A stretch of DNA of 64,000 nt from a phage: sequence record PV730300.1. The stretch is one strand, 5' to 3'. Below are positions 3,356-38,214 of this stretch, piece by piece (position 1 is the stretch's first letter; each line of letters begins with the position of its first letter). The notes beneath the pieces are model-generated. The model worked only from the letters and a program-made list of their open reading frames with translations, did no database searches and was not told the DNA's origin. A program made the translations under genes and the position numbers.

Positions 3356-3508
3356 ATGAACGAATTATTCTCCCAAGGCGGTATTGCCCCAGGTATTACT
3401 GCCATTGGTCTTAGTGCTGCCGGAGTATTAGTTCACTCTGCTGGTAATGTGGACCTTGGGGAATTAGCTGCATATCGTGATTTAAAAAGTAATGAGAACG
3501 CACTATGA
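3356..3508 (+). CDS. small hydrophobic protein (50 aa), not in ORF track
   Basis: ATG preceded by AAAGAGG RBS; hydrophobic GIAPGITAIGLSAAGVLV stretch; stop overlaps next ATG (ATGA). Confidence 0.35.
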   Translation: MNELFSQGGIAPGITAIGLSAAGVLVHSAGNVDLGELAAYRDLKSNENAL

Positions 3509-3747
3509 GAAAATTTTTAATAGGTATGTTCTGTACATATCCTGATAATAAAGTCAGTTCTACGAAAGTCTGGAACGCTGTAGGCATGTCGGTTATGACA
3601 GGCATGTTTATCTTTTTAGGAATAGAAAAAGAAATTCCTGAATGGATGGGTTGGGCTTTTGTTTTCATGATAACTCCTTCTCGCCTCATGAAAAATCTTA
3701 TTGATTTACGCTGGGGCAGATCACAATCTACCAAAGAGGATGACTAA
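3505..3747 (+). CDS. small membrane protein (80 aa), holin-like candidate
   Basis: Two hydrophobic segments; translationally coupled to flanking genes; the antisense ORF 3411-3734 is judged spurious. Confidence 0.4.
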   Translation: MRKFLIGMFCTYPDNKVSSTKVWNAVGMSVMTGMFIFLGIEKEIPEWMGWAFVFMITPSRLMKNLIDLRWGRSQSTKEDD

Positions 3748-7828: not shown

Positions 7829-7831
7829 TTA

Positions 7832-10885: not shown

Positions 10886-10891
10886 TGGAAC

Positions 10892-10916: not shown

Positions 10917-10946
10917 AATAGAATGGTCTAATGATAGGAGAGATAA

Positions 10947-12971: not shown

Positions 12972-12975
12972 CAGA

Positions 12976-12999
12976 AGCCCCGAAAGGGGCTTTCTTTTT
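12976..12999 (+). terminator. rho-independent terminator
   Basis: AGCCCC-gaaa-GGGGCT hairpin followed by TTTCTTTTT. Confidence 0.65.
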
Positions 13000-13012
13000 A
13001 TGGAGGGTTTAA

Positions 13013-25766: not shown

Positions 25767-26439
25767 GTGCTAGTGCCTCCTCATAGGAAATTCGGATTTT
25801 CCCATTTTTAATATCCTCTAAAGATGCTTTATATTCTTCCCAGTTAATCCCGATAGCAGCTTCTTTCTCTTCTTTTGTCAGATTAGCAAAAGGCATAGGA
25901 TTGTTTCCAAAAACATCGTCTGGGTGGATATAAGCCATGATACGAAGTGGACAAGGTGTTGCCTGAATACCATGATTCAAACCAGCAGCTTTCAAACGGT
26001 GTCCCCATTCGGCATCTTCAAAACCATAACCGTGAGTGTAAGGGCGGAAATAACCCATCTTCTCAACAACGGCACGAGAATACATTGCAAATTGACACAT
26101 TGCAAGTTCCCAGAGAATAACTTCTCCTTTGCTTCCAACAACTTTATCTTTGAAGTACTCCGGCATACCAAAGAAATCCCATCCTCCAGAAACAGCCTGA
26201 TCTACAAAATATGTTTCCCATCCTTCCATGACTGGGTAGCAATCATCGTCAAAAATAAACCAATAATCATAACCTTCTTCATAGAACTGGTGCATAAGTT
26301 CATTCCTGGCATAAGCTACACCTTTACGATCTGGATCGTTGAATACTCGAAAATCTGCACGTGGATCTGTTACAAGGTAGTCTTTAAGTGGACGGACACC
26401 TACAGTGATAACACCCACTCCGATTTTAATATTTTCCAT
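25756..26439 (-). CDS. glycosyltransferase-like protein with DxD-type motif (227 aa)
   Basis: WFIFDDDCYP resembles the GT-A DxD metal/donor-binding motif. Confidence 0.35.
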   Translation of the reverse strand: MENIKIGVGVITVGVRPLKDYLVTDPRADFRVFNDPDRKGVAYARNELMHQFYEEGYDYWFIFDDDCYPVMEGWETYFVDQAVSGGWDFFGMPEYFKDKVVGSKGEVILWELAMCQFAMYSRAVVEKMGYFRPYTHGYGFEDAEWGHRLKAAGLNHGIQATPCPLRIMAYIHPDDVFGNNPMPFANLTKEEKEAAIGINWEEYKASLEDIKNGKIRISYEEALAHVK

Positions 26440-26447
26440 TTTCTCTC

Positions 26448-27011
26448 CTAAATAGTTTTACTGTGATCATGACAGTGTAATAAATGATGTATAGACCGTT
26501 GAGGATTTGTTTGACCTAATCTGTAAATGTGAAACAGATACATTCCCCGCATCAATCCTAACCTCTTTCCTTTTTCATGTAAAGTGCGAGAGAAAATTAA
26601 GTCAAATTGGATAGATTTTTCTTCGAAAGGAATTTCATTCCACAGTGATTTCCTAAAAAGCAAAAAGAAACCAGCTAAAGGTGTTCCAAAAGGAACTTCT
26701 TCAACGTTTGTTTTATGATATTCCCGTGCAATTTTAGCATATTCTATGTGATTTAGAATGTCTGGGTCATCATTAATTTGGTTAGAGAAAAGCTGATAAC
26801 CACTACCCAGCCTATTACAAGTTGCACCTATTACATCAAAAGGTGGGTTTGACATAATAAGCTCTTCAAGCATAGATGGTTGATCAGGTAGGAGGAACAT
26901 TGTATCGGTATCTCTTAAACACACCCAACTATCATCTGGAAGAACGGCAATAGCTTCATTAATAGCCTTGCCGATATTTCCTGTCAGATAGGGAGTAATA
27001 TAATAAATCAT
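26448..27011 (-). CDS. glycosyltransferase-like protein (187 aa)
   Basis: CLRDTDTMF DxD-like motif; same operon as the other three GT-like genes. Confidence 0.3.
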   Translation of the reverse strand: MIYYITPYLTGNIGKAINEAIAVLPDDSWVCLRDTDTMFLLPDQPSMLEELIMSNPPFDVIGATCNRLGSGYQLFSNQINDDPDILNHIEYAKIAREYHKTNVEEVPFGTPLAGFFLLFRKSLWNEIPFEEKSIQFDLIFSRTLHEKGKRLGLMRGMYLFHIYRLGQTNPQRSIHHLLHCHDHSKTI

Positions 27012-27027
27012 TCTCCCCTCCGTTATA

Positions 27028-27219
27028 TTAACTGTCAGCTACAATCCCACGTTTAATCATTTCTTGTTGGATTTGGATCACACGATCTCGTGCTTCCATA
27101 TATTCTTTAAAAGATTCTTGAAGATGGTCACGAGCTACGTCTCGTAGCTTAATCAGTTTGTCGTTTGTCACTTCTTGAAGAGAGATTTCGCCAGTTTCAT
27201 TGGTCCCAAGCGTTTTCAT
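27028..27219 (-). CDS. hypothetical protein (63 aa)
   Basis: Small ORF in co-directional block. Confidence 0.4.
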   Translation of the reverse strand: MKTLGTNETGEISLQEVTNDKLIKLRDVARDHLQESFKEYMEARDRVIQIQQEMIKRGIVADS

Positions 27220-27475
27220 TTACAACCTCCTTAATAGCTACTGCACAGTTCTTACAAATACATTGACCTTTGTTCTTAGAAATTTCAATGTAAGGTTCAT
27301 TTTCGTTTTCTCCGCGTCGTGAGTCGTATATTACTGTATTGAAGCAGACAACGCAAATGTTTTTAATAACGACATATTTTTGCACTTTCTGTTTAGTGCG
27401 AAAATTGACTTCAATGACTTCTCCCATCAGTGAATCTCCCCTAAAATGTTGTTTTGAGACATTACTGCGGAGCAT
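27197..27475 (-). CDS. small cysteine-rich protein, possible zinc ribbon (start uncertain)
   Basis: CVVCF...CICKNC cysteine pairs; N-terminus may start at the internal MGEV. Confidence 0.35.
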   Translation of the reverse strand: MLRSNVSKQHFRGDSLMGEVIEVNFRTKQKVQKYVVIKNICVVCFNTVIYDSRRGENENEPYIEISKNKGQCICKNCAVAIKEVVNENAWDQ

Positions 27476-27774
27476 TCTACAGCATCATGAGTCCTTGCAA
27501 AACGCTCCCACAACACAGCATCTACTTTAAGAACCATACAAGGATAAATACTGTCGTTGATCATATCAATGCTATATTTATCTACATCCTTTTCATCTTC
27601 CATAAACAAAGTAGCGTATGCTTCTAAATGCTTACGGGTGTAGTATACATCCTCTTCGGTAAGACCGACAACCAGGTAACTTGCTACAACAACAGTATTA
27701 TCTTCTTGCATTTTAACTCCCCTTTGGTAGATAGAAACCATGCACTTTATCTCGATAAACAAGACGCATATCAC
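27427..27774 (-). CDS. hypothetical protein (start uncertain)
   Basis: ORF overlapping its neighbours at both ends; real start probably internal. Confidence 0.3.
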   Translation of the reverse strand: MICVLFIEIKCMVSIYQRGVKMQEDNTVVVASYLVVGLTEEDVYYTRKHLEAYATLFMEDEKDVDKYSIDMINDSIYPCMVLKVDAVLWERFARTHDAVECSAVMSQNNILGEIH

Positions 27775-28234
27775 GTTCCCAGTGTGTCCTTATATTCCGT
27801 TTCTTGAAGTATAGAGCACCTTTAGTAACATCTAAAACAGACCGCAATTCAGGAAAATGTTTCTCTAAATAAAGTAAACGCTCCGCTATTGCTTTTGCTT
27901 CCTGCCACTTATCTTTCTCTGTTACGTTAAAAGTTTTCGCATATGAGAATTGTCCTTTCTGGAACAAGACTCCTCTGACTGTGTTAGGGAAGTAGGTATC
28001 ATTTCTTCTGTTGATTACCACATTCCCAACGGCATTCATTCCTTTTTTACCCAGACCGCGACCTTCTGCGTAAATTGCACAAGCTAATAGAATTTTATCA
28101 TTATATTGCTTTGTACATTTGTGAACTACTTTAGCGGTTTTTACGTTTGCAGCTTCGGCTTTCGCCACAACAGGTGTAAATGTAAAAGCAGTTAAGGATA
28201 GTAACGCAACTGTTACAAAGTTTTTTATCAGCAA
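27713..28234 (-). CDS. secreted SleB/CwlJ-like cell-wall hydrolase (endolysin candidate), TTG start
   Basis: N-terminal signal-like hydrophobic segment ending AKA; YAEGRGLG...NAVGNVVINRRND...FPNTVRGVLFQKGQFSYA matches cell-wall hydrolase family 2 pattern; AGGAGG RBS 7 nt before TTG. Confidence 0.6.
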   Translation of the reverse strand: MLIKNFVTVALLSLTAFTFTPVVAKAEAANVKTAKVVHKCTKQYNDKILLACAIYAEGRGLGKKGMNAVGNVVINRRNDTYFPNTVRGVLFQKGQFSYAKTFNVTEKDKWQEAKAIAERLLYLEKHFPELRSVLDVTKGALYFKKRNIRTHWERDMRLVYRDKVHGFYLPKGS

Positions 28235-28334
28235 ATTTTGCCTCCTTTTTAAGTTAACGAATTTCTAGTATAACACGATAGAGGCTTTATTGCAAGAGGG
28301 GGGATTTCTCCCCCTCAAAATCATTTGTTAATTA

Positions 28335-28937
28335 TTATGGACATTCATACCATTCTTTTTTACCACCGAAGGCCATCACCACATCACAAATATCCAGACC
28401 AGCTTTACCTACACCATATGCTTTCAGCTTCCATTCCCCATCTTCACGAACCAAGGAAGCCACGTGGCAGATTGTGTTGCCAGCTACTTCAGGAGCCAGG
28501 AAGTCAAAATCCAGAATTTCCACATTGCGCTCGGAGTCGAAGATTTTAAGCATACCTTCAGAAGCATGACCAAAACGTTTCAGACCTGTATCATCATCAA
28601 TGGTCAGGACAAAGGCAATCTCTTGTGCATCAGGAGAGATTTTAGCCAGAGTAATATCAATCTGCTCCATGCTGCCAGTTCCATCACGAACATCGTCACC
28701 AGCGAAGGTAGAACGTTCAGGATCAAACTTGTTAGCATAGCAAACCAGGTGACGTGCAGACAGCATTTCAGGATTGCCAGCGGCATTGTGACGACAAACC
28801 AGTGCACTTACATCCAGATCCAGTTTAGAATCAGATTTCCAAGAGAATTCCAGGCGCAGTTCTTTCAGAGCCGGAGCAACTTTCTTCAGGGAAATTTTTT
28901 CGCTAGAGCCTTTTTTCAGGGAAATTTTATCAGTCAT
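28335..28937 (-). CDS. TerD-family protein (200 aa)
   Basis: N-terminal ISLKK repeats and GDDVRDGTGSMEQIDI...LTIDDD Ca-binding-like acidic motifs typical of TerD domains. Confidence 0.65.
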   Translation of the reverse strand: MTDKISLKKGSSEKISLKKVAPALKELRLEFSWKSDSKLDLDVSALVCRHNAAGNPEMLSARHLVCYANKFDPERSTFAGDDVRDGTGSMEQIDITLAKISPDAQEIAFVLTIDDDTGLKRFGHASEGMLKIFDSERNVEILDFDFLAPEVAGNTICHVASLVREDGEWKLKAYGVGKAGLDICDVVMAFGGKKEWYECP

Positions 28938-28952
28938 CTTTTGTCTCCTCTA

Positions 28953-29222
28953 TTATTTAAGTGTAATACCAGTTACAGTCAATTCTACTTCCAAAAGCTT
29001 AGATGTGTTTTGGATTGATACTAATTGTGCATGATGGTTTAGTTCTACAGCAGAACAATCATTTTCCCCATCATCTACTTTTAAATAAACAATGATTTCA
29101 CTAAGGTCTAAACCATTTTCGTCAAATGCATTTTCATAGACGAAAGTATCTCCTACATCCAAATCTTTAATGGTAAGGCATCGTTTATTTACTTTTTGCT
29201 CATCAATTTCGAAGTTTAACAC
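28953..29222 (-). CDS. hypothetical protein, paralog of 30244-30522 (89 aa)
   Basis: Shares KDLDVGDTF...LEVELTVTGITLK pattern with 30244-30522. Confidence 0.45.
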   Translation of the reverse strand: MLNFEIDEQKVNKRCLTIKDLDVGDTFVYENAFDENGLDLSEIIVYLKVDDGENDCSAVELNHHAQLVSIQNTSKLLEVELTVTGITLK

Positions 29223-29451
29223 TTCTTCCTCCTAATGTTATCTCCGGTTTGTATATACGAAGAATTATAGCATTTTCATTTTCTTTGTCAACCCATTCTT
29301 CATAATCGGGCCATACATGAATCTCTACTCTACTTACAATATCTTCCATTCGCACAGTCCCAATGAAATACTCTTTGAGACTGCGTATAATGAAAGCTTC
29401 TCTCTCGCGCCAATAATTTTCTATGACTTGAGAGGCAAGCTCGTCGATCAT
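29203..29451 (-). CDS. hypothetical protein (82 aa)
   Basis: ORF coupled to neighbours. Confidence 0.4.
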   Translation of the reverse strand: MIDELASQVIENYWREREAFIIRSLKEYFIGTVRMEDIVSRVEIHVWPDYEEWVDKENENAIILRIYKPEITLGGRSVKLRN

Positions 29452-30242
29452 TTTTTAGCACCTACTTTAACAACCCACTCTCCGAACTCTTCAGATAAGA
29501 GTTTGTCATAAAGCTCTGAATCTGTCAAGTCTAAATCTTTAATGCCAATAAAACCAACATTATCATAAGCATTTGCCAGTTCTTTCAGGAAGCCAAACTT
29601 CTCATTACCAACGCCAACCATGAACCAATAGATAGGCTTATTCTTATTTTCTTCAATAAGACGACGAACAGCACTAGGATCACCATTCTCACCATCCGTC
29701 TGGAAGAATACAACACCAGGGGTAACGTCAGCACCTGGTTCAGATACAGCTACAACTTTTTCACGCTCTACAGACACTGTTTCAGTTTTACCAAGCAGAC
29801 GATTAAAGAAGCCTTTCTTTGGAGCCTCCTCTTGTACCACTTGTTTAGTGGTAATATATTTAGTAACAGTGCCAAAATACTCATCGTAGATATCCGCCAT
29901 TACAGGGGCGTAATTTGTTCCACCTCCGATACGAACATTACGCATACATTTACCAACATAGTCATCGTAAACATCTGCTGTTGCTGGAGTAAGCTCTTGG
30001 GAACTCGTATTGAAGGCCCACATATCAATTTGTTGATTATCGTCGAACAGCATACCAAAAGGAAGCAGTTTACCTACAAAATCACTCACTACCCCACTAG
30101 AATATAGACCATGCATACTACCAGAAATATCTAGAGCACATGCTACACGAAGAACAATCTTACCTTCATTCAGGTTCTTATTCTTTTTCAGAGAGAAAGC
30201 AAGGTTTTCTTGACGTTTTTTCAGGCTGATTTTCTCGGACAT
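29448..30242 (-). CDS. vWA-domain protein (TerY/TerF-like) with TerD-like N-terminus (264 aa)
   Basis: MIDAS-type DISGSM motif; N-terminal EKISLKK as in TerD family. Confidence 0.55.
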   Translation of the reverse strand: MSEKISLKKRQENLAFSLKKNKNLNEGKIVLRVACALDISGSMHGLYSSGVVSDFVGKLLPFGMLFDDNQQIDMWAFNTSSQELTPATADVYDDYVGKCMRNVRIGGGTNYAPVMADIYDEYFGTVTKYITTKQVVQEEAPKKGFFNRLLGKTETVSVEREKVVAVSEPGADVTPGVVFFQTDGENGDPSAVRRLIEENKNKPIYWFMVGVGNEKFGFLKELANAYDNVGFIGIKDLDLTDSELYDKLLSEEFGEWVVKVGAKK

Positions 30243-30243
30243 A

Positions 30244-30522
30244 TTATTTCTCCTTCTTAAGTGTAATATTGGTAACTTCTAAATCTACTTCCACCATATT
30301 TGTATCTGGTGGGATGCAATGAGTATAGCCTCGTTGTGCTAGTGATCCATTAATACAAATCGCACTGTTTGTGGAATTTTTAATGAACACCAAGTTACGG
30401 TAGGTATCCAACCCTGCGTCTTCATAGGCATCATAATACATGAATGTGGCCCCTACGTCAAGATCTTCGAAAGCAATAGGTAAATCCTGACACTTTTCTT
30501 CTTGAATATTGAATCTAAACAC
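30244..30522 (-). CDS. hypothetical protein, paralog of 28953-29222 (GTG start)
   Basis: GGAGG then GTG start gives an N-terminus aligned with its paralog; longer track ORF would overlap the upstream gene by about 70 nt. Confidence 0.45.
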   Translation of the reverse strand: MFRFNIQEEKCQDLPIAFEDLDVGATFMYYDAYEDAGLDTYRNLVFIKNSTNSAICINGSLAQRGYTHCIPPDTNMVEVDLEVTNITLKKEK

Positions 30523-31078
30523 GCATACCTCCTCTACCAATTTTGAAGCCCAAATCGTAAGCTTCCTTAGTGATCTTTTGTAACTCACTTATAGGAAGTG
30601 TTACAAGAGGATCATCTTCTTCAATTTCCATCTTGTCATCTTCTGTTTCAATGAGAGTATTATGCACTTTGTGATAAGGGTTGTCAACACGTTTAAACTT
30701 ATTCTTTTCTGTGCTGAAAAAACAATCTGGATCTTCTTCACCATCACCCCAACCTTGATTAGGATCTCCGTCAGATTGTTCTGTAGGGATTTCACCTGTA
30801 AAGTACTCTTCCAGCACCATAGCGATACCGTCCCTTGGATTTGAGGAATGCATTAAATCACAAACCTTACCCCAATCCATAGCCCATTCGAACCGTTCAC
30901 GAACGCCATTTTCATCCTCCTTTCCAGAGAAAACACAACCATAACTATCATAGTTGCCATACATCTCTTCAATAACAGCACCGTCCTTCAAAAGAAAGAG
31001 ATAACAAGGTGATCCGTCGAAAGAAGTAGAAAGGGCAGCTTTGCCCGATTCCTTACACAAAAAACTAAAACAACCCAT
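30515..31078 (-). CDS. hypothetical acidic protein (187 aa)
   Basis: ORF; Asp/Glu-rich C-terminal half. Confidence 0.45.
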   Translation of the reverse strand: MGCFSFLCKESGKAALSTSFDGSPCYLFLLKDGAVIEEMYGNYDSYGCVFSGKEDENGVRERFEWAMDWGKVCDLMHSSNPRDGIAMVLEEYFTGEIPTEQSDGDPNQGWGDGEEDPDCFFSTEKNKFKRVDNPYHKVHNTLIETEDDKMEIEEDDPLVTLPISELQKITKEAYDLGFKIGRGGMRV

Positions 31079-31281
31079 TACAAACCCTCCTTCAGATTAT
31101 CAAGAGCTACAGTGGTTTCACAAAAGTCTCCATACGTTTTATGATGTTCCAGAAAAGCTTCGGGTCCACCCCAATCATTGTCTTGTGTATTCCAGCCATC
31201 AATAAAAGCATCTTCAATGATTGTGATCAGTTCTTGTCGGGTTAACTGGATAATATTAGGGTCGTTATCGTAGTTAAACAT
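31078..31281 (-). CDS. hypothetical protein (67 aa)
   Basis: ORF coupled to neighbours. Confidence 0.4.
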   Translation of the reverse strand: MFNYDNDPNIIQLTRQELITIIEDAFIDGWNTQDNDWGGPEAFLEHHKTYGDFCETTVALDNLKEGL

Positions 31282-31447
31282 CCTCTTCCTCCTCTAAAAT
31301 ATGGAACCCGTAATTACAATAGTCCTGAAAGGTTTCGTGCGCAAGATCTTCTATATCCTCTTGAGACATATCATCTTCAATTTCGATATCCACAACCTCA
31401 TTGCATCCACACCAAGCAGTTTCAATACTCACTCGTAATATTTTCAT
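31274..31447 (-). CDS. small acidic protein (57 aa), not in ORF track
   Basis: ATG overlaps the upstream stop (TAATG); ends overlapping the next start. Confidence 0.3.
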   Translation of the reverse strand: MKILRVSIETAWCGCNEVVDIEIEDDMSQEDIEDLAHETFQDYCNYGFHILEEEEDV

Positions 31448-31641
31448 TACTCCTCCTCATTGAAGTCAATATCTGCAAGGAGTTGGAATTTACGGAAGTT
31501 ACGACAACCTTCATAAATATAACAATCACGACAAACTGCTAGAACACTTGGGGGATATATGCCTCCCATCGGTGCGAATCGTTTTTCGTCATCATAACGG
31601 ACACCAATGTCTTCATCAATTATATAGATACGGATTCTCAT
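31447..31641 (-). CDS. hypothetical protein (64 aa)
   Basis: ORF coupled to neighbours. Confidence 0.4.
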   Translation of the reverse strand: MRIRIYIIDEDIGVRYDDEKRFAPMGGIYPPSVLAVCRDCYIYEGCRNFRKFQLLADIDFNEEE

Positions 31642-32750
31642 TTACCAAGCCCTCGTTTCACAGCAGCTACCATCCCGTCTTCCAGAGATTGAACTTCATT
31701 AATATAATCAACACGAGCAGCACGGGCTTCCGTATTGATGCGGTTAGTTTCTTCCAACATCTTAACCAAGTTTTCCTGATCGTGACGCAGAGTTTCAATA
31801 TCCAACACTTGACGGTTAGCCAGTGCTGCTGCTTCGATTTGATTCTGTGTGGCAAGATCGCTACCCAGTTTAATTGCCAGGTTAAATTCATCAAGAACGT
31901 TATTCTGCGTCTCTGCTGCTTTCATTTGACGTAAGCTTTCGATATACATTGAGAAGTTAGCAGAGTAAGCAGGAATAACATTATTTACTATGTTACGCGC
32001 AGATCGCATTAAGCTTGCAGAAACTTTTTGCATACCTTGTACACGCGGTCCCATTTGGACACACAGTAGGCGCAATGCTTTTAAATCTGCAATACGAATC
32101 TCCAGAAGATCCAAAGTATCTCGGATCACTTGTCGCTGTTCTACTGCATCTTCTGGAAGAGCAGCCAAAACTTGTTCTTCTTTTTCATAGGTTGCTGTTA
32201 GAAGCTGCATATCTCGGTTCAAACTTGCAGCATATTGTCCAATAGCTTGATGTAGCTTTTCAAGATATACCAAGGAATCTTCTTCTTTGCGAATATCCAT
32301 TTGAAGGTTCTTTACCAACTCTTCAATACGGTTATTAACATTATCAAACTCCCCGAACAGGTCTTCTTTCATACCCATAACTTTTTTAATGAGTTTAGTA
32401 ATACCTTTGCTTTGTTTAATAGAGTTTGGATCAAGTTGTTTTGCCTGTTTAATCAAAGCTGTGAGTCGTTCACTCATCTGATCGCCTTGATTACTACGTT
32501 GATGTTTTAATACCTCGGCATTCAAGGAACGCAAGGTTGTTCCTGCCTCTGCCCCAATCTCTTCGATCTCTTGTCGGGTCATAGAAGGCAAAACTGGAAC
32601 TTCTTGCGGTGCTGCTGGTGCGTAAACAGGACTGGCATCTAACACGCTTGGAGCGAATACAGATTTACTTGCATCTGTTGTTGCAGCGAATACACTCATT
32701 TCAGACTTCTTCTGACCACCAGTAGCTGCTTTTAAAAATGGACTTGTCAT
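31638..32750 (-). CDS. TelA-like (toxic anion resistance family) protein (370 aa)
   Basis: Size and extended coiled-coil character typical of TelA/KlaA proteins; sits with TerD, vWA and TerC genes. Confidence 0.5.
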   Translation of the reverse strand: MTSPFLKAATGGQKKSEMSVFAATTDASKSVFAPSVLDASPVYAPAAPQEVPVLPSMTRQEIEEIGAEAGTTLRSLNAEVLKHQRSNQGDQMSERLTALIKQAKQLDPNSIKQSKGITKLIKKVMGMKEDLFGEFDNVNNRIEELVKNLQMDIRKEEDSLVYLEKLHQAIGQYAASLNRDMQLLTATYEKEEQVLAALPEDAVEQRQVIRDTLDLLEIRIADLKALRLLCVQMGPRVQGMQKVSASLMRSARNIVNNVIPAYSANFSMYIESLRQMKAAETQNNVLDEFNLAIKLGSDLATQNQIEAAALANRQVLDIETLRHDQENLVKMLEETNRINTEARAARVDYINEVQSLEDGMVAAVKRGLGK

Positions 32751-33337
32751 TCTTCATTCTCCTCTTCTGCATCTCTTATATATGGTGAAACACCGTACTC
32801 TTTAGCTACTTTAACCCAATCATCCCATTTATACAACCATAATTTTCCTTCAGTTCCTTCTTTATCTGATTTCAACCACATATTAGGTTGCTTGCCTGGA
32901 TACATGCGATTAGGTTTACGATTATAACCTCTGACACATCTTGTCGCAAACCTATCTACCAGAACAAGAACATACTTATATTCGTGGTTCAACGGTTCTT
33001 TGGAAGTGGCTTTAGGATTAGCCCCTAATTCTGCTGCCAGTTTTTGCCAATGAGCACCGTGTCTACTAAATTTACCCATACAACCATCAATAGCATGAGC
33101 AATTTCGTGCTTCATTGTATCCACGATCATATCTCTTGTAGAGTTCTTATGCAAGTGCCAATTTACAACAACAATTTTATCTCGGTAGTTGCACCAACCG
33201 AAAGAGTTATTCACTTTGTTTCTAACACAAGCTTTATATCCTGCTTCACGTAACATGTTGTAGTAAACAGGAAAATCTTCTTTTATTTCCTGCATCACTT
33301 CCCACCACAAGAGTTGCAAGTCTCTCTCGGTATGCAT
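32747..33337 (-). CDS. SprT-like zinc metallopeptidase (196 aa)
   Basis: HEIAH (HExxH) motif in a SprT-like setting; overlaps the TelA-like gene stop. Confidence 0.5.
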   Translation of the reverse strand: MHTERDLQLLWWEVMQEIKEDFPVYYNMLREAGYKACVRNKVNNSFGWCNYRDKIVVVNWHLHKNSTRDMIVDTMKHEIAHAIDGCMGKFSRHGAHWQKLAAELGANPKATSKEPLNHEYKYVLVLVDRFATRCVRGYNRKPNRMYPGKQPNMWLKSDKEGTEGKLWLYKWDDWVKVAKEYGVSPYIRDAEEENEE

Positions 33338-33340
33338 AAC

Positions 33341-33934
33341 TTACACCTTAAAAGCGAAATACGTGGTCGTGGCTTCAAAATCAGGGCCAGATAAACTTGC
33401 ACTGAAATCTGAAATATTTGTAATTAAAAAGCTTTTATGCATACCTAACACAGCCACGCTTTCAATATCTTCTACTAACATTTCAATCATGTTAGAAACA
33501 TGGCTGAACGTAGAGTTTTGTTTTTTGATGGTGTAGAAAGAAAGATTCCCACCTGCTGTATAAGATACCTCTTCAAAATCTTTAATCGTATATTGTGTGC
33601 CATCAGTAAAGAAAATGGTAGCTTTATTAGTAGCACGTTTCTTGTTTTTTGGTCCTTTTTTACGTTTACTGCGAGTAGGCAAACCGTTTGGAAATACCGT
33701 AGCTACAAATTCTTCAGGAGAAACCTCCTTACCGAAATCATAACCGTAAGAAACAGCGTCTATAAACTCGTCGTCTTCATTTTTAAAATAATGAAAATAG
33801 GGCCAATTTGAGAGATTATCGAGCATCTTATGCTCATCCACAGCAGAGAACGTATCCCTCAAAGCACGTGTGATTTGTAAAGCATTAGGCAAACTTTTAA
33901 CACCTGTAATGGAAGTACGAATAGAAATTGTCAT
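33341..33934 (-). CDS. hypothetical protein (197 aa)
   Basis: ORF; basic KRKKGPKNKKR patch. Confidence 0.45.
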   Translation of the reverse strand: MTISIRTSITGVKSLPNALQITRALRDTFSAVDEHKMLDNLSNWPYFHYFKNEDDEFIDAVSYGYDFGKEVSPEEFVATVFPNGLPTRSKRKKGPKNKKRATNKATIFFTDGTQYTIKDFEEVSYTAGGNLSFYTIKKQNSTFSHVSNMIEMLVEDIESVAVLGMHKSFLITNISDFSASLSGPDFEATTTYFAFKV

Positions 33935-33948
33935 TGTTTTTCTCCTTA

Positions 33949-34386
33949 TTAACGTCGCTTGCTACGAGATGAACTCTTTTTACTTAAAGGGCTATTGTAA
34001 GATTTACGAGTTGTATAGCTACTATTTGTTTTAAAAGTTTGTCTCGGCTTTTCATAAGTTTTTATCTCTTGCTTAGGCTTACCATAAAAATTAGTTTTCG
34101 GTTTAGGTGTATTATAATGCTTATTAATAATCGTTCTGTTATCGTTATAATCCCCACTGTTACGATTACCACCACCACTCATCATATGCCCTAACAACAT
34201 ACCTGTAGCAAACTCACCAACACCGCTACTACTAGAACCGCCACCATTGTTGATAATAGTTGTATCTCCGTCAGATCCTTGTTGAGCGTATTGTTGAGGA
34301 GGTTGTTGGTATTGTGCAGGATTTGTTTCATCCTCGCAAGCTGTTAAAAAGATACAACCAATTAAAATCAGTGCTAGTTTTTTCAT
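33949..34386 (-). CDS. lipoprotein, Gly/Ser-rich (start at internal ATG)
   Basis: MKKLALILIGCIFLTAC signal peptide with lipobox cysteine; GAGGAAAG RBS before this ATG. Confidence 0.5.
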   Translation of the reverse strand: MKKLALILIGCIFLTACEDETNPAQYQQPPQQYAQQGSDGDTTIINNGGGSSSSGVGEFATGMLLGHMMSGGGNRNSGDYNDNRTIINKHYNTPKPKTNFYGKPKQEIKTYEKPRQTFKTNSSYTTRKSYNSPLSKKSSSRSKRR

Positions 34387-34573
34387 ATTTGCTTTCCTCA
34401 TTTTGACTATTAATACACCTGTGTTTGAAATCTCCAGAGAAGCAATAAAGTTGCTCTCCATCTCGGTATAAACTCACTTTACTGCCGTTGATTACGCTTG
34501 TCAATACAAAAATTACAACAAACAACCCTATTGCAAAACAAATATTTTCAAACACAACCAACAAGTATTTCAT
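34328..34573 (-). CDS. small membrane protein (81 aa)
   Basis: One hydrophobic helix; overlaps the lipoprotein gene start. Confidence 0.3.
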   Translation of the reverse strand: MKYLLVVFENICFAIGLFVVIFVLTSVINGSKVSLYRDGEQLYCFSGDFKHRCINSQNEESKYEKTSTDFNWLYLFNSLRG

Positions 34574-34920
34574 TTTAAAAATACCTCATCATCAGTTTCA
34601 TTATCCCAGAAGAACAAATCCCAACCATTCGGATCATTCCATTTGGCTGCTGGAGAAGTCCATATTTGTTCGATATCAATATTCAAAACTTCACCGTTTC
34701 GTTTTGAAACAGCTTTAGTTAATTCCCAACGAGATACAGGCTCTACTTCTCCTGAACCACTTCCACAACAAGCTACAACATTAGGAGGCAAATTAATTGG
34801 ATCTTTGGTCACAATCATAACGCTTACCCCAGGGTAAACTTTTGAAAGATAATCTAAAACGTAATCCACATCACCAGATAAATCCCAAATAAGTTCTTGA
34901 ATTTCATCAAAATTATTCAT
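34570..34920 (-). CDS. hypothetical protein (116 aa)
   Basis: ORF following the TerC gene. Confidence 0.45.
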   Translation of the reverse strand: MNNFDEIQELIWDLSGDVDYVLDYLSKVYPGVSVMIVTKDPINLPPNVVACCGSGSGEVEPVSRWELTKAVSKRNGEVLNIDIEQIWTSPAAKWNDPNGWDLFFWDNETDDEVFLK

Positions 34921-34962
34921 AAGTCTCTCCTATAAAATAGCCTCCCGAAGGAGGCTCATCTA

Positions 34963-35937
34963 TTAAACAGCAGCTTCTTCTTTTTCAGGGAAGATAAAGC
35001 TTGCAATAACACCCAGAGCTAATGTGCCTAGAACAATCATCAGACTTACGTTAGGGGAAATATCATGCGGGAGGAATGACCACTTGGCATGAAGTGTTTC
35101 ACCGAACGGGTGATACATAAGTTTAGCACCAACAAACACCAGAACCACAGCAACAGCTTTCTCTAAGTGAACCAGATATTTCACAGCTACACTCAACACA
35201 AAGAAAAGTGCACGTAAACCAAGAACAGCCATCAGCATTGCAGAATAAACTAGCAGAGGTTCTTGTGTCACACCGATCACAGCCGGAACTGAATCAAAAG
35301 AGAAGACAATATCTGTAAGCTCAATAACAAACACACAAAGAAGAGCAGGAGTTGCATATTTAATACCATTCTTAATGGTGATGAACTTTTCACCATCCAG
35401 CGCATTGTGCACAGGCAGAACTTTACCTACTAAACGAACAGCCCAATGCTTAGAGTAATCAATATCCTCTTCTTCGTCACCACCTTTGATGATAGCCACG
35501 GCAGACCAAGCTACAATCAAACCGAACAACACTTGGACCGACCAATGAAGGTTAAACAAAGCGGTCCCTGCTGCAACAAAAATACCTCGGAAGACAATGG
35601 CTCCTGCAATCCCCCAAAGTAAAATCTTATGTTGGAGATGTGTACTCTTAATTCCAAAGCTTGCAAAAATTGCCATGAACACCATCAGGTTATCTACAGA
35701 AAGACTCTTTTCCAACACATAGCCACTTAAGAAAAGCGCGGCAAACTCTTTACCATGTTCTACCCAAATGAATGCGTAATATCCTAAAGCTAAAGCAATC
35801 CAAAAAACAGACCAAAGCAAAGCAGATTTAATTCCAATTTCTTTATTCTCTTTATGACCAAAGAAATCGATACCAATAGACAATGCCAAAATACCAACTA
35901 AAACAACTACATCAATAATTGGGAAACCGAGTTGCAT
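34963..35937 (-). CDS. TerC-family integral membrane protein (324 aa)
   Basis: Multiple transmembrane segments and the TerC-type EKSLSVDNLMVF motif; preceded by an early-type promoter-hairpin cassette. Confidence 0.75.
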   Translation of the reverse strand: MQLGFPIIDVVVLVGILALSIGIDFFGHKENKEIGIKSALLWSVFWIALALGYYAFIWVEHGKEFAALFLSGYVLEKSLSVDNLMVFMAIFASFGIKSTHLQHKILLWGIAGAIVFRGIFVAAGTALFNLHWSVQVLFGLIVAWSAVAIIKGGDEEEDIDYSKHWAVRLVGKVLPVHNALDGEKFITIKNGIKYATPALLCVFVIELTDIVFSFDSVPAVIGVTQEPLLVYSAMLMAVLGLRALFFVLSVAVKYLVHLEKAVAVVLVFVGAKLMYHPFGETLHAKWSFLPHDISPNVSLMIVLGTLALGVIASFIFPEKEEAAV

Positions 35938-36013
35938 TCTTTTCTCCTCTCTTTGCGGGGAACTATTCCCCGCTTCATGTGATATATCTTACTCTTTTTA
36001 AGAACTGTGTCAA
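35938..36013 (-). promoter_or_regulatory. early-type promoter-hairpin-RBS cassette driving the TerC gene
   Basis: On minus strand: TTGACA, 16-nt spacer, TAAGAT, ATATCACAT, GCGGGGAA-tag-TTCCCCGC hairpin, AAAGAGAGGAGAAAAGA, ATG; same layout as the 57.6-64 kb cassettes. Confidence 0.6.
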
Positions 36014-36016
36014 CAC

Positions 36017-36238
36017 TTATTTTGTTGAATGAGAGGAAAAGATTCCTCGTAATACCGCCAGAATAAACGAAACACAAACCACGGTCCAGAAGGTTACTGG
36101 GACAGTGATATCTGCATGACCCATAACTTCAGCAACATAGTTGTAAGCCAGCAACAGTAACCAAGCTGGAATCAAACTAAGCATAAAAGCAATAACAAAA
36201 AAGCTTACCACTGCAACAATACCTGCAAAAACACCCAT
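36017..36238 (-). CDS. small membrane protein (73 aa)
   Basis: Two hydrophobic helices. Confidence 0.4.
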   Translation of the reverse strand: MGVFAGIVAVVSFFVIAFMLSLIPAWLLLLAYNYVAEVMGHADITVPVTFWTVVCVSFILAVLRGIFSSHSTK

Positions 36239-36250
36239 ACTAATCTCCTC

Positions 36251-36724
36251 TTAAAGTTTATAAATAGTTACATCGTGACCTGTTTTTACTAAAGTTTCTT
36301 CAATCATCACTTGGATGATAGCCCAATTACCTCCAGCATATCCAGCGCCAATCATAGGTAAGCCGATCTTACATTTTTGGTCACGGAGAAGCAAATCATT
36401 AGCCATAGCTATTAGTGCATCGTAAAGTGCATCATAGTCCAACTGACGACCTTTAGCATTGTATCCGTAACGGTATTGCCCGTATAGATTATATACCAAA
36501 GGGTCTGATTGTTCGTCTGGCACCCCTAAACTAAAAGAACCTAACTTACTTTGATCACCAGCCATTGTGTCTAAATCTGCCGCATATGCATAAGGGAATG
36601 CTCGTTTAATTTGCGGAGCAATTCCTGCTCCCATGTTACACATACAATTGCAACAATGAGCAATAACAGTTACTTCACCTGCTTTAGCGGCATCAATAAG
36701 ATTACCTGTTTTCGTTTTAAGCAT
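36251..36724 (-). CDS. macrodomain protein, TARG1/OARD1-like (157 aa)
   Basis: IAHCCNCMCNMGAGIA and C-terminal IGLPMIGAGYAGGNW...DVTIYKL align by eye with TARG1 (LAHCISEDCRMGAGIA ... LSMPRIGCGLDRLQW...DIKITVYTL). Confidence 0.6.
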   Translation of the reverse strand: MLKTKTGNLIDAAKAGEVTVIAHCCNCMCNMGAGIAPQIKRAFPYAYAADLDTMAGDQSKLGSFSLGVPDEQSDPLVYNLYGQYRYGYNAKGRQLDYDALYDALIAMANDLLLRDQKCKIGLPMIGAGYAGGNWAIIQVMIEETLVKTGHDVTIYKL

Positions 36725-36736
36725 TTTAGCTCCTTA

Positions 36737-37564
36737 TTACAGAATGTGTTGTTTTGTGTAACGATCCAAGAATTCAAAGTTTTCAGCATACTTTGAAATT
36801 CGGTTGTAACCTTCTCCCAAGCATCCAAAGAAAAGTTGCTCTACATAGTAGTGTGGCAATTGACTAAGAATGATTTTGAAGTCTTCATGATTTTGGCCCA
36901 TAAGATATTTAATAGGACGAACAAGACACTGTGCATCACGTTCTTCATTAATCATTTTAACAAATGCTTCTGGTGTATTAATGTAGTTAAAATTCAGTTT
37001 AGCTTCGGTATCTGCTTGATTACCTTCATATTTTGCAAAATACAGGAAGTAAACATCATTTTTAACTTGATTTTCATCAAGAATCTCAATCAGTTTGTCT
37101 TCATGCGTTCCAGTGATATTTACATCATCAATGAATACAAGCTTCTTATCACCCCAGAATTCTTTGTTGCAGTAGAATGTATCCCCATCAATAAGTTTCT
37201 TACGACTAGCTTTATCCAAGAAACCATAATCGTTGATATAGCTAACTTTACGATGAATAATGTCCAGTTCTGCTGAACGACCTTGATCATATTGTGATTG
37301 CAACATGTTAAAGTAATTAATAAAATGATCTGTCATCATTGTTGCAGCATTATGCACATGGTTGTAAGGAGAAGGAATGATAACAAATTGTTCCCCAATA
37401 TGTTTCATTGCCACTTGAGCAAAAAACTGAAGTGCCAATTCTTTACCCATACGACGCGCGGCTTGGTTACTACCAAATTTCAATTTTGAATAATCTTGGA
37501 TATCAAAAGTAGCAGTTTCCAGGTCATCAAATTTATTTGCAAAAATTTGAGTTTGATTACGCAT
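36737..37564 (-). CDS. phosphoribosyltransferase-domain protein (275 aa)
   Basis: KLVFIDDVNITGTHED resembles the PRPP-binding motif of type I PRTases. Confidence 0.55.
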   Translation of the reverse strand: MRNQTQIFANKFDDLETATFDIQDYSKLKFGSNQAARRMGKELALQFFAQVAMKHIGEQFVIIPSPYNHVHNAATMMTDHFINYFNMLQSQYDQGRSAELDIIHRKVSYINDYGFLDKASRKKLIDGDTFYCNKEFWGDKKLVFIDDVNITGTHEDKLIEILDENQVKNDVYFLYFAKYEGNQADTEAKLNFNYINTPEAFVKMINEERDAQCLVRPIKYLMGQNHEDFKIILSQLPHYYVEQLFFGCLGEGYNRISKYAENFEFLDRYTKQHIL

Positions 37565-38213
37565 TTACAATTTCTCCTCTTTTAAGTTTCTCTAGTAAGT
37601 CGTTAGGGTTCTTAATATGACAGAAGTTAAATCCTAAGTCAACACATTTTCCATCATATTCTTCACTATCGCCTACGTGCAATACTTCGTGCCCTAACAG
37701 AGGGATCGGAGAATACGTGAGCGTGCGAGCAAAGAATCGCGGATCTGGTTTACAAAGTAAAGCTTCATCCGAGAAATGGGTGAACTCAAAACAATTCCAA
37801 CTATCAAACTTACAAGCACGACGCAGGATATCCCCTGATATAAAGTTGGTATTGCTCTTAATACTCAAATCATAACGTCCCGAAAGATACAGCAAGTACA
37901 TCGGCAGATCCACGGCTACGTGTGGTGGAAACTTAAGGAACCACTGTTCACACTCAAAACGAAGCTTTGCAGACTTCCAAGGCGTTATCCCAAGTTCAGA
38001 ACCAAGTCTTTCCCAGGCGTATGCTGCACACTCGGCTTTGCCTTGAAGTGCTGCATTATCCAGTTCCTTTTTGATCTTCTTATAAGCTGCTCTTGCTTCC
38101 ACTTCTGTAATATCTCCATATTTTGCGATAGTCCAGGCTCGCATATCTGCGTAATTGGAGTTTGCTGTGATCAGTGTGTTCCATACATCAAAAGAGATAT
38201 GTTTAATAGTCAT
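37557..38213 (-). CDS. HAD-superfamily hydrolase-like protein (218 aa)
   Basis: N-terminal FDVWNTL (haloacid-dehalogenase-type motif I variant) and distal HVGDS motif. Confidence 0.5.
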   Translation of the reverse strand: MTIKHISFDVWNTLITANSNYADMRAWTIAKYGDITEVEARAAYKKIKKELDNAALQGKAECAAYAWERLGSELGITPWKSAKLRFECEQWFLKFPPHVAVDLPMYLLYLSGRYDLSIKSNTNFISGDILRRACKFDSWNCFEFTHFSDEALLCKPDPRFFARTLTYSPIPLLGHEVLHVGDSEEYDGKCVDLGFNFCHIKNPNDLLEKLKRGEIVNA

Positions 38214-38214
38214 A

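What the first reader, a model, noticed from the sequence alone, without database searches (positions are those of the whole stretch)
27713..28234. Only recognisable lysin is a signal-peptide SleB-like hydrolase placed among replication genes
No lysozyme- or amidase-type endolysin was recognised near the tail genes. The only peptidoglycan-hydrolase-like ORF is this SleB/CwlJ-type protein with an N-terminal signal-like sequence and a TTG start, suggesting secretion-dependent lysis. A lipoprotein overlapping a small membrane protein at 33949-34573 could be a spanin-like pair, but both are atypical in size.
Basis: inference. Interest (0 to 1): 0.4.

Follow-up and report, generated by a model that had tools for sequence, protein, structure and literature searches.

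The report
Secreted SleB-like phage wall hydrolase
This gene of a phAPEC8-like E. coli phage encodes a real, exported SleB/CwlJ-type cell-wall hydrolase. It is already annotated in public genomes, and it is not the phage's only lysin: near-identical relatives carry a T4-type lysozyme and the true spanins just outside this window.

Summary
The window is about 64 kb of a Phapecoctavirus (phAPEC8-like myophage), 96-99% identical to Shigella phage SF1-1 over most of its length.

**What holds up.** The ORF at 27713-28234 (-) is real:
- It has a TTG start six bases after an AAAGGAGG ribosome-binding site.
- It has an N-terminal Sec-type signal with a conserved A-x-A site.
- It matches Pfam Hydrolase_2 (E 1.9e-17) and keeps the catalytic Glu (E57).
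- Its predicted fold (pLDDT 92) matches only Bacillus SleB in the PDB.
- Within the window it is the only recognisable peptidoglycan hydrolase.

**What does not hold up.**
- The rest of the genome in all close relatives encodes a signal-less T4 gpe-type lysozyme (PF00959).
- The curated overlapped i-/o-spanin pair lies directly upstream of the large terminase gene.
- The membrane-protein/lipoprotein pair at 33949-34573 is therefore not the spanin pair.
- No holin was recognised by profile searches.

**Wider pattern.** T5, rV5-like and PaP1/PAK_P1-like phages also carry an exported SleB-like gene plus a separate main endolysin.

**Most likely reading.** This is a low-dose, Sec-exported accessory muralytic enzyme, not the sole lysin. 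The gene is already annotated ("endolysin / cell wall hydrolase SleB"), and the two-lysin set-up is published. Its true role is untested.

The parts
27713..28234 (-). CDS of the SleB/CwlJ-like exported cell-wall hydrolase (173 aa, TTG start, stop codon included)
   Evidence: It is 99% identical to annotated 'endolysin / putative cell wall hydrolase SleB' genes of Phapecoctavirus.
28151..28234 (-). Predicted Sec signal peptide, residues 1-28: n-region MLIK, h-region F6-V23 with P21, c-region A-K-A-E-A. The likely signal peptidase I (SPase I) cut is after A28 (or after A26).
   Evidence: Alignment A1: positions -1 and -3 stay small (A/S/G) in all 15 homologues, while position -2 varies (E, K, V, L). 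129 of the 150 nearest family representatives have an N-terminal hydrophobic segment. Cleavage itself is inferred, not shown.
27725..28105 (-). Hydrolase_2 (SleB catalytic-domain fold) region, residues ~44-170
   Evidence: The Pfam hit covers residues 62-168. phmmer against SleB 4f55/4fet covers residues 44-98. AF2 model pLDDT 92.1. Foldseek finds only SleB: probability 1.0, TM 0.69-0.77.
28064..28066 (-). Codon of the predicted catalytic glutamate E57, in the motif Y-A-E-G-R-G
   Evidence: It aligns with the Glu of SleB Y-G-E-S-R-G. It is invariant in the 92-sequence alignment A3, together with R76. Its catalytic role in SleB is taken from my own knowledge of the SleB structure papers.
28241..28248 (-). 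Shine-Dalgarno sequence AAAGGAGG, 6 nt before the TTG
   Evidence: Read from the sequence. AGGAGGC and the TTG are invariant in four lineages.
28267..28295 (-). Gene-specific sigma-70-type promoter: TTGCAA, 17-nt spacer, TG-n-TATACT (extended -10)
   Evidence: The -35, the 17-nt spacer, the TG and TAnAnT are kept in BME3, L012 and L014, while neighbouring bases vary. The motif occurs once in the window. Function is inferred.
28296..28316 (-). G+C-rich hairpin (GAGGGGG / CCCCCTC) between the TerD-like gene and the promoter; probably a terminator or insulator
   Evidence: Read from the sequence. It is conserved in position in relatives and annotated as a terminator in Klebsiella phage FBKp34. 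The strict terminator scan did not call it.
34328..34573 (-). 81-aa protein with an N-terminal transmembrane segment.
   Evidence: PHROG 17591, unknown function; no Pfam hit. The true i-spanin is absent from the window.
33949..34386 (-). 145-aa lipoprotein (MKKLALILIGCIFLTA|C) overlapping the previous gene by 59 nt. It is judged not to be the o-spanin.
   Evidence: (PHROGs 21570 and 32479, unknown function). The curated o-spanin phAPEC8_00146 is not in the window.
3505..3747 (+). 80-aa protein with two weak transmembrane segments and a charged C-tail, inside the baseplate/tail-fibre genes. It is a speculative holin candidate only.
   Evidence: (PHROG 1322 'membrane protein'). It has no holin family hit.

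Best explanation
The gene encodes a small single-domain peptidoglycan hydrolase of the SleB/CwlJ (Pfam Hydrolase_2) family, which has a lytic-transglycosylase-type fold.

**Proposed mechanism**
- The protein is made with a classical Sec signal peptide and exported to the periplasm of the infected E. coli cell.
- Signal peptidase I most likely cuts it after A-E-A (residue 28), releasing a soluble enzyme of about 16 kDa. Its active-site Glu57 cleaves the glycan strands.
- It is a second, accessory muralytic enzyme. The phage's canonical lysis set lies outside this window: a cytoplasmic T4 E-type lysozyme, an unidentified holin, and an overlapped Rz/Rz1-type spanin pair next to terL.
- The gene has its own conserved promoter behind a hairpin, and an invariant weak TTG start. 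This fits a deliberately low dose of an enzyme that is dangerous once exported.
- It probably weakens or helps dismantle the sacculus, and becomes lethal only when wall synthesis and membrane energisation collapse at holin triggering.

**Shown here:** the ORF, the domain, the fold, the conserved Glu, the export-signal features, the conserved promoter and TTG, and the existence of the other lysin and the spanins in relatives.

**Inferred:** export, cleavage, enzymatic activity on E. coli murein, timing, and the accessory role.
For: **Identity**
- Pfam PF07486, 64 bits.
- The alignment to SleB places E57 on the SleB Glu.
- E57 and R76 are invariant in 92 homologues.
- AF2 pLDDT 92.1, and Foldseek hits only SleB 4f55/4fet.

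**Export**
- The n-h-c signal has a conserved -3/-1 pattern and a variable -2 position.
- More distant homologues have unrelated but equivalent signals: FBKp34 ...ALQNAAA|S, rV5-like ...LPVVA|AP, T5p081 ...FSSQA|SH.
- 129 of the 150 nearest cluster representatives have a signal-like N-terminus.
- PMC7344957 reports a signal peptide on the Certrevirus homologue CB7_83 and toxicity on expression in E. coli.

**Accessory status**
- The T4 E-like lysozyme (PF00959, no signal) is present in SF1-1 and in 133 related records.
- PMC10793346 lists both lytic proteins for a Phapecoctavirus.
- The spanins are curated elsewhere in the genome.
- The same duality is seen in T5 (EndoT5 as the T5 endolysin), in rV5 (Gp89 lysozyme) and in PaP1 (g029 hydrolase plus verified endolysin g072).

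**Dose control**
- The promoter, Shine-Dalgarno sequence and TTG are invariant across four lineages.
Against: - No experiment on this protein or on any Stephanstirmvirinae homologue was found.
- RefSeq and PHROG name it 'endolysin', and nothing here excludes that it is required for lysis.
- In Certrevirus CB7 a 2-TMD class II holin candidate overlaps the SleB-like gene. In that lineage it may therefore be part of a real lysis pair.
- No holin was identified for the T4-type lysozyme either.
- Timing is unknown. The same promoter type also precedes structural and spanin genes.
- Cleavage was judged by rule and alignment, not by a trained predictor.
Confidence: 0.55

Rival explanations
1. One reading: this is the phage's principal endolysin. 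Lysis depends on secretion (Sec-delivered enzyme, triggered by membrane depolarisation), and the T4-like lysozyme has another or a redundant role.
For: - It is annotated 'endolysin' in RefSeq and PHROG 938.
- The CB7 homologue is toxic in E. coli and overlaps a candidate class II holin.
- No holin was found that would serve a cytoplasmic lysozyme.
- The gene is strictly conserved across Stephanstirmvirinae.
Against: - A complete, signal-less T4 gpe homologue with the E/D/T catalytic motif co-occurs one-to-one with it.
- In T5, rV5/PVP-SE1 and PaP1 relatives another enzyme is the recognised or biochemically verified endolysin.
- No membrane-protein gene is adjacent here.
- The weak TTG start argues for low abundance.
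Confidence: 0.15
2. It is a SAR (signal-anchor-release) endolysin. The N-terminal segment is not cleaved. It tethers an inactive enzyme to the inner membrane until depolarisation by a pinholin releases it.
For: - The hydrophobic segment is long (18 residues) and only weakly hydrophobic (best 19-mer Kyte-Doolittle score 1.67, against 2.57 for the i-spanin TMD).
- It is about 43% Ala/Ser/Thr.
- It is nearly invariant within the subfamily.
- The PAK_P1 homologue has an N-terminal TMD without an A-x-A site.
Against: - A -3/-1 small-residue pattern is conserved downstream of the segment, as expected for a functional SPase I site.
- The segment contains no glycine, unlike the classical SAR domains (my own knowledge of P1 Lyz and R21).
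- At larger distance the segment is replaced by unrelated ordinary signal peptides.
- A linker of about 15-20 residues separates it from the catalytic domain.
- No pinholin was found.
Confidence: 0.15
3. It has no role in terminal lysis. It is a periplasmic wall-remodelling enzyme used during infection, for example to loosen the sacculus or to alter the envelope together with the neighbouring Ter-like stress genes or against superinfection.
For: - It is encoded in early/middle-type blocks in four unrelated lineages, apart from the late or lysis genes.
- It has conserved synteny with TelA, vWA and TerD.
- It sits next to rIIA/rIIB in rV5-like phages.
- Most of the 17,204 related clusters are small proteins with N-terminal signals, as judged from the 150 nearest representatives; their cellular or phage origin was not determined.
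Against: - It is separated from the Ter genes by a hairpin and has its own promoter.
- No direct evidence supports any such role.
- Toxicity of the homologue suggests it can lyse.
Confidence: 0.2
4. The overlapping membrane-protein/lipoprotein pair at 33949-34573 is a second or atypical spanin.
For: The gene architecture mimics overlapped spanins: an N-terminal TMD protein is followed by an out-of-frame lipobox protein that overlaps it by 59 nt.
Against: - The curated spanins are other genes, next to terL. They hit PHROGs 4297 and 1267.
- This pair hits only unknown-function PHROGs and no Pfam family.
- The periplasmic part of the TM protein is about 50 aa with two Cys and no evident coiled coil.
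- The lipoprotein is 128 aa when mature, of low complexity, with a very basic tail.
Confidence: 0.05

Closest known systems
phAPEC8 'putative cell wall hydrolase SleB' and its orthologues (nepoznato gp059 YP_009986072, SF1-1 gp226, iGC_PHA_EC001)
   Same: This is the same gene: 98-99% identical, in the same position between the TerD-like gene and the glycosyltransferases. PMC10793346 already lists it as one of two lytic proteins.
   Different: Nothing of substance differs. None of these genes has been characterised experimentally.
Bacillus SleB catalytic domain (PDB 4F55, 4FET), a germination-specific lytic transglycosylase
   Same: It has the same fold (Foldseek probability 1.0, TM 0.69-0.77). 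It shares the Y-x-E-[SG]-R-G motif with the Glu, and the V-x-x-N-R motif.
   Different: It is only 25-26% identical. It has no N-terminal peptidoglycan-binding domain and no YpeB-type partner. Its substrate must be ordinary E. coli murein, not muramic-delta-lactam cortex (inference).
Vequintavirinae SleB-like proteins (Pectobacterium phage CB7_83, Cronobacter phage CR3_087, rV5-like bas53_0064)
   Same: They combine a signal peptide with a single Hydrolase_2 domain and are 35-40% identical. Their genomes also have a second peptidoglycan hydrolase, spanins beside terL and no lysis cassette.
   Different: In CB7 a 65-aa 2-TMD holin candidate overlaps the gene. In rV5-like phages the gene sits upstream of rIIA/rIIB. 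Neither neighbour is present here.
T5p081 'cell wall hydrolase homolog' of phage T5
   Same: It has a cleavable-type signal peptide plus a Hydrolase_2 domain and is about 37% identical over the catalytic domain. It lies in the early region, and the phage has a separate endolysin, EndoT5 (EndoT5).
   Different: It has an ATG start, a different cysteine pattern, and sits in the tRNA region.
Signal-peptide endolysins such as Lys44 of Oenococcus phage fOg44 (own knowledge; cited in the reference list seen)
   Same: It would work like them: Sec export of a lysin during infection, with lethal action deferred until the membrane is de-energised.
   Different: They have a different catalytic family and a Gram-positive host. 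In those phages the secreted enzyme is the endolysin, whereas here a cytoplasmic T4-type lysozyme coexists.
SAR endolysins (P1 Lyz, phage 21 R21; own knowledge, Xu et al. 2004 cited)
   Same: Export is independent of the holin, through an N-terminal hydrophobic segment.
   Different: The conserved A-x-A site, the absence of Gly-rich composition, the different fold and the missing pinholin all distinguish it. See the membership test.

Membership tests
Pfam Hydrolase_2 (PF07486, SleB/CwlJ cell-wall hydrolases) | Profile match above the curated gathering score | tested here: met
   64.1 bits against a cut-off of 27, E 1.9e-17, residues 62-168.
Pfam Hydrolase_2 (PF07486, SleB/CwlJ cell-wall hydrolases) | Conserved catalytic glutamate in the Y-x-E-x-R-G motif | tested here: met
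   E57 aligns with the SleB Glu and is invariant in 92 homologues.
Pfam Hydrolase_2 (PF07486, SleB/CwlJ cell-wall hydrolases) | SleB catalytic-domain fold | tested here: met
   AF2 pLDDT 92.1. Foldseek against the PDB gives 4f55/4fet at probability 1.0 and no other hit with E below 0.9.
Pfam Hydrolase_2 (PF07486, SleB/CwlJ cell-wall hydrolases) | Lytic transglycosylase activity on peptidoglycan | not testable with these tools
   This needs muropeptide analysis of digested sacculi.
SleB proper (orthologue of the Bacillus spore cortex-lytic enzyme) | N-terminal peptidoglycan-binding domain plus the catalytic domain | tested here: not met
   Only the Hydrolase_2 domain was found. Residues 29-43 form a short linker. 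The architecture is CwlJ-like plus a signal peptide.
Phage endolysin (functional class) | Muralytic catalytic domain encoded by a phage | tested here: met
Phage endolysin (functional class) | Genetic linkage to holin and/or spanin genes (lysis cassette) | tested here: not met
   The neighbours are a TerD-like gene and a soluble 94-aa ORF. The spanins lie next to terL outside the window.
Phage endolysin (functional class) | Required for host lysis | not testable with these tools
   No genetics was found in the literature searches.
Sec signal-peptide (cleaved) secreted lysins | Tripartite n-h-c signal with small residues at -3 and -1 | tested here: met
   K4; F6-V23 with P21; A26-E27-A28|A29. 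The -3/-1 positions are conserved while -2 varies in 15 homologues. Analogous signals occur in distant homologues. A trained predictor such as SignalP was not available.
Sec signal-peptide (cleaved) secreted lysins | Actual export and processing | not testable with these tools
   There is indirect support only: the CB7 homologue is toxic in E. coli.
SAR endolysins | Uncleaved, weakly hydrophobic N-terminal TMD rich in Gly/Ala/Ser | tested here: inconclusive
   The Kyte-Doolittle score of 1.67 is low and Ala/Ser/Thr make up about 43%. However, there is no Gly and a conserved A-x-A site follows.
SAR endolysins | Partner pinholin | tested here: not met
   No holin or pinholin family hit was found for any small membrane protein of the window or of the SF1-1 genome.
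Two-component spanins (for the pair at 33949-34573) | i-spanin: N-terminal TMD plus a long helical periplasmic domain. o-spanin: lipobox lipoprotein. Genes adjacent or overlapping. | tested here: inconclusive
   The TMD, the lipobox and the 59-nt overlap are present. The periplasmic parts are atypical. Coiled-coil content was not computed.
Two-component spanins (for the pair at 33949-34573) | Homology to known spanin families, or being the genome's curated spanin | tested here: not met
   The pair hits PHROGs 17591, 21570 and 32479, all of unknown function. The curated phAPEC8 spanins are different proteins outside the window.

The most novel reading that the evidence does not exclude
Exported SleB-like hydrolases form a conserved but functionally unrecognised class in at least four lineages of large virulent phages of Gram-negative hosts: Stephanstirmvirinae, Vequintavirinae, T5-like and PAK_P1-like.

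They are always encoded apart from the main endolysin and carry their own regulatory signals. They would act either as a Sec-dependent, holin-independent second lysis route or in a non-lytic periplasmic wall-remodelling step during infection.
Probability: 0.2. Interest if true: 0.5.

Novelty: already known. Interest (0 to 1): 0.15.

Why it matters
It matters little for discovery. The gene, its family assignment and the two-lysin content of these phages are already in public annotation and in print.

It has two practical uses:
- **Annotation.** A 64-kb slice can make an accessory hydrolase look like the sole lysin. An overlapped TM/lipoprotein pair can look like spanins when the real ones sit beside the terminase gene.
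- **An open question.** No one has tested why so many virulent phages keep a secreted SleB-like enzyme in addition to a classical endolysin. A simple deletion and E57A experiment in a phAPEC8-like or T5 phage would answer it.

Tried and rejected
1. **Structure from the shallow alignment.** AF2 on the 15-sequence alignment A1 gave an unusable model (pLDDT 54.6). It was replaced by the 92-sequence alignment A3.
2. **Holin search.** PHROG and Pfam scans of ten small membrane proteins from the window and the rest of the SF1-1 genome gave no holin or spanin family. The 80-aa protein at 3505-3747 is only a topological candidate. It is not the rV5 gp129 holin candidate, because its FV3 homologue is ORF029, among the tail-fibre genes.
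3. **Timing from the promoter.** I first read the sigma-70-type promoter as evidence of early expression. I rejected this because structural, portal and spanin-proximal genes carry the same TTGACA/TTGCAA-17-TGnTAnnnT type. The motif with its AGCCTCT spacer is unique in the window, so no co-regulated set could be defined.
4. **RNA structure in the 5' region.** None was found (z = +0.91).
5. **Rule-based SPase site finder.** My own finder was too permissive and placed the site inside the h-region. I used it only for the cysteine counts.
6. **Small ORFs near the spanins and the lysozyme.** The ORFs next to the spanins (SF1-1 gp20, gp21) and upstream of the lysozyme (gp68) were checked as holins. 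All are hydrophilic.
7. **Literature gaps.** The original phi92 genome paper (PMC3457257) is not held. The 2026 phi92 virion structure paper mentions no lysozyme or hydrolase.
8. **PAK_P3/PAK_P4 transcriptomics.** The paper concerns a different putative endolysin gene with downstream holin/spanin candidates, not the SleB-like gene.
Full report
**Origin of the window.**
- Megablast of 26000-30000 finds 65 phage records covering at least 80% of the query at 95% identity or more. All are phAPEC8-like Phapecoctavirus (Stephanstirmvirinae). The best is Shigella phage SF1-1, PQ571307, at 99.0%.
- The whole window aligns in reverse to SF1-1 record positions ~75,100-139,650.
- The layout is as follows:
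  - tail and baseplate genes on the + strand at ~1-14,770;
  - a long minus-strand block of replication, nucleotide-metabolism, glycosyltransferase and Ter-like genes at ~14.8-50 kb;
  - small early-type genes beyond that.

**The observation.**
- ORF 27713-28234 (-) is 173 aa.
- Its TTG start is preceded by AAAGGAGG with a 6-nt spacer. The next in-frame Met is M66, which lies beyond the catalytic motif, so the TTG is the only sensible start.
- TTG is the start codon in all five DNA sequences examined, including a Klebsiella phage homologue with only 40% identity. The rV5-like homologue uses GTG.
- The protein matches Pfam Hydrolase_2 (PF07486) at 64 bits against a cut-off of 27, and PHROG 938 'endolysin'.
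- phmmer against PDB sequences finds only Bacillus SleB (4f55, 4fet). It aligns AIYAEGRG with AVYGESRG, which places E57 on the SleB glutamate.
- In a 92-sequence alignment of homologues down to ~26% identity, only E57 and R76 are invariant.
- With that alignment AlphaFold2 gives pLDDT 92.1. Foldseek against the PDB returns only the SleB catalytic domains: probability 1.0, target-normalised TM 0.69-0.77, next hit E ~1.
- The hydrolase call is therefore solid.

**The export signal.**
- The N-terminus reads M-L-I-K (n-region), F6-V23 with P21 (h-region), then A-K-A-E-A|A-N-V.
- Among 15 homologues of 60-89% identity, positions -1 and -3 before 'ANVK' are always small (A, S or G). Position -2 varies (E, K, V, L). 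This is the signature of a functional signal peptidase I site.
- More distant homologues carry unrelated but equivalent signals:
  - FBKp34...ILALQNAAA|STS;
  - rV5-like...LSLPVVA|AP;
  - T5p081: MKAALLLVAALTFSFSSQA|SH.
- The PAK_P1 homologue has an N-terminal TMD without such a site.
- An HMM search of 1.84 billion cluster representatives finds 17,204 related clusters at E <= 0.001. Of the 150 nearest, 129 have a hydrophobic N-terminal segment.
- 'Signal plus single Hydrolase_2 domain' is therefore the normal design of this branch, not a special adaptation here.
- I rate a cleaved Sec signal as clearly more likely than a SAR anchor. No trained predictor was available, and the segment is long and only moderately hydrophobic (Kyte-Doolittle 1.67).

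**Regulatory signals.**
- Between the TerD-like gene (28335-28937, PF02342) and the ORF lie three elements:
  - a G+C hairpin at 28296-28316;
  - TTGCAA, a 17-nt spacer, then TG-T-TATACT at 28295-28267;
  - the Shine-Dalgarno sequence.
- All of these, and the TTG, are conserved in Justusliebigvirus BME3 and in two metagenomic relatives of 59-61% protein identity. Neighbouring bases vary. The -10 element reads TATACT, TACAAT, TAGAAT or TAAAAT.
- The full motif occurs once in the window.
- The gene therefore has its own promoter. I do not infer timing from it, because portal, head and spanin-proximal genes of SF1-1 carry the same promoter type.

**Is it the only lysin?**
- Within the window, yes. 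The eight large tail and baseplate ORFs have no peptidoglycan-hydrolase domain. The SF1-1 annotation (PHROG plus structure searches) names none in the corresponding region.
- In the genome, no.
  - SF1-1 gp69 (record 42606-43106) is a 166-aa T4 gpe homologue: MLRVDEGL...YQDHLGYWTVGIGHLL, PF00959, no signal.
  - It is absent from the window.
  - It is present at 60% identity or more in 133 phage records. The SleB-like protein is present in 132, and the i-spanin in 134.
- PMC10793346 states that Phapecoctavirus iGC_PHA_EC001, 98.5% identical to the window region, 'encodes two lytic proteins' with PF00959 and PF07486 domains.

**Spanins and holin.**
- Kongari et al. 2018 (PMC6139136, Table S1) curated phAPEC8 gp121 (i-spanin) and phAPEC8_00146 (o-spanin) as an overlapped pair at 62013-62641.
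- tblastn finds neither in the window.
- In SF1-1 they sit immediately upstream of the large terminase gene.
- The small ORFs beside them are hydrophilic.
It matches only PHROGs of unknown function and no Pfam family.
- No holin family was detected for any small membrane protein of the window or of the rest of the SF1-1 genome.
- One candidate by topology alone is an 80-aa protein with two weak TMDs and a charged tail at 3505-3747 (+), among the baseplate genes. It belongs to PHROG 1322 and occurs in 372 records of Stephanstirmvirinae and Vequintavirinae.

**Comparative pattern.** The same arrangement recurs in four lineages.
- **Vequintavirinae.**
  - A signal-bearing SleB-like protein is present (CB7_83, reported toxic in E. 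coli; CR3_087).
  - A second peptidoglycan hydrolase is also present.
  - The spanins lie beside terL, and there is no lysis cassette (PMC7344957).
  - rV5 Gp89 lysozyme is called the 'obvious lysin' (PMC3606486).
  - In a rV5-like phage the SleB-like gene lies just upstream of rIIA/rIIB.
- **T5.** T5p081 lies in the early/tRNA region. T5 has its own endolysin, EndoT5 (PDB 2MXZ, cited).
- **PaP1/PAK_P1-like.** g029 is a 'cell wall hydrolase', and g072 is an endolysin shown to digest peptidoglycan (PMC3652863).
- **Stephanstirmvirinae.** This is the present case. The synteny TelA, vWA-TerF, TerD, Hydrolase_2, (glycosyltransferases), primase-helicase is kept even in relatives of 59-61% identity.

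**Interpretation.**
- The best-supported reading is a Sec-exported, processed periplasmic SleB/CwlJ-family glycan-strand hydrolase. It is a second, accessory muralytic enzyme made at low dose from a weak TTG start and its own promoter.
- The canonical lysis machinery is a T4 E-type lysozyme, an unidentified holin, and Rz/Rz1-type spanins encoded elsewhere.
- How a periplasmic hydrolase is tolerated until the end of infection is not known. I infer that low dose, ongoing wall synthesis and membrane energisation hold it in check, as for the secreted Lys44-type and SAR endolysins (own knowledge).
- Three rivals cannot be excluded without experiments: that it is the main lysin, that it is a SAR enzyme, or that it has a non-lytic envelope role. 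I rate each at 0.15-0.2.

**Novelty.**
- The gene is 98-99% identical to genes annotated since phAPEC8 as 'putative cell wall hydrolase SleB' or 'endolysin'.
- The two-lysin content is published.
- The signal peptide and toxicity of the family are noted in print.
- The finding is therefore already known at the annotation level and ordinary.
- What remains open is the biological role of this conserved secreted enzyme, which no paper found here has tested.

Noticed in passing
window 28335-38820 (- strand): A phage-borne Ter-like stress cluster:
- TerD (28335-28937, PF02342);
- vWA-TerF-like (29448-30242, PF10138);
- a TelA-like 'tellurite resistance' gene (~31.6-32.7 kb by homology to SF1-1 gp216);
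- TerC (34963-35937, PF03741);
- PRTase-, phosphatase- and HAD-type genes (36.2-38.8 kb).

The order TelA, vWA, TerD, Hydrolase_2 is conserved in relatives of 59-61% identity (L012, L014).
   Followed up: partly
window 3505-3747 (+): An 80-aa protein with two weak transmembrane segments and a charged C-terminal tail lies between tail-spike and baseplate-wedge genes. It belongs to PHROG 1322 ('membrane protein') and is conserved in 372 phage records of Stephanstirmvirinae, Vequintavirinae and some Aeromonas phages. It is the only small membrane protein in the late structural block, which makes it a possible holin, but it hits no holin family.
   Followed up: partly
window 33949-34573 (-): An 81-aa N-terminal-TMD protein and a 145-aa low-complexity, very basic lipoprotein overlap by 59 nt out of frame. 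This copies spanin gene architecture, yet both are unrelated to the phage's curated spanins. Their function is unknown; superinfection exclusion is a guess.
   Followed up: partly
window 57666-57693, 58909-58936, 60299-60326 (+); similar at 50305-50278 (-) and 63817-63844 (+): Near-identical strong promoter-like units (TTGACAAC.TTTTTTAATCTG.TAAGAT) are repeated roughly every 1.2-1.4 kb in the region of small ORFs. This looks like a repeated early-promoter class.
   Followed up: no
window 28100-28234 (-), 5' part of the SleB-like gene: Synonymous sites are unusually conserved at the 5' end. Among identical residues, identical codons make up 0.70 in codons 2-28 and 0.61 in codons 29-45, against 0.44-0.46 in the rest of the gene (four lineages). 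The 5' mRNA is not more structured than shuffled controls (z = +0.9), so the cause is unexplained. Possible causes are selection for an open initiation region or recent recombination.
   Followed up: partly
window 36017-36238 (-), 51299-51487 (+), 52275-52439 (+): Three further small proteins (54-73 aa) each have two strong transmembrane segments. All belong to PHROGs of unknown function. The first lies between the phosphatase and TerC genes.
   Followed up: partly
L002 7640-8000 (SF1-1, outside the window): Ahead of the small ORF (gp20) that lies just upstream of the spanin genes and terL, there is a terminator hairpin followed by TTGCAA-17-TGATAAGAT. This is the same -35 variant and hairpin-plus-promoter layout as in front of the SleB-like gene. 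It hints at, but does not show, common regulation.
   Followed up: no
phage database records hit: Several records labelled 'Campylobacter phage' (for example B15, C7, A12a) or 'Acinetobacter phage vB_AbaM_ABPW7' are 98-100% identical to E. coli phAPEC8- or rV5-like phages. The host labels look doubtful.
   Followed up: no
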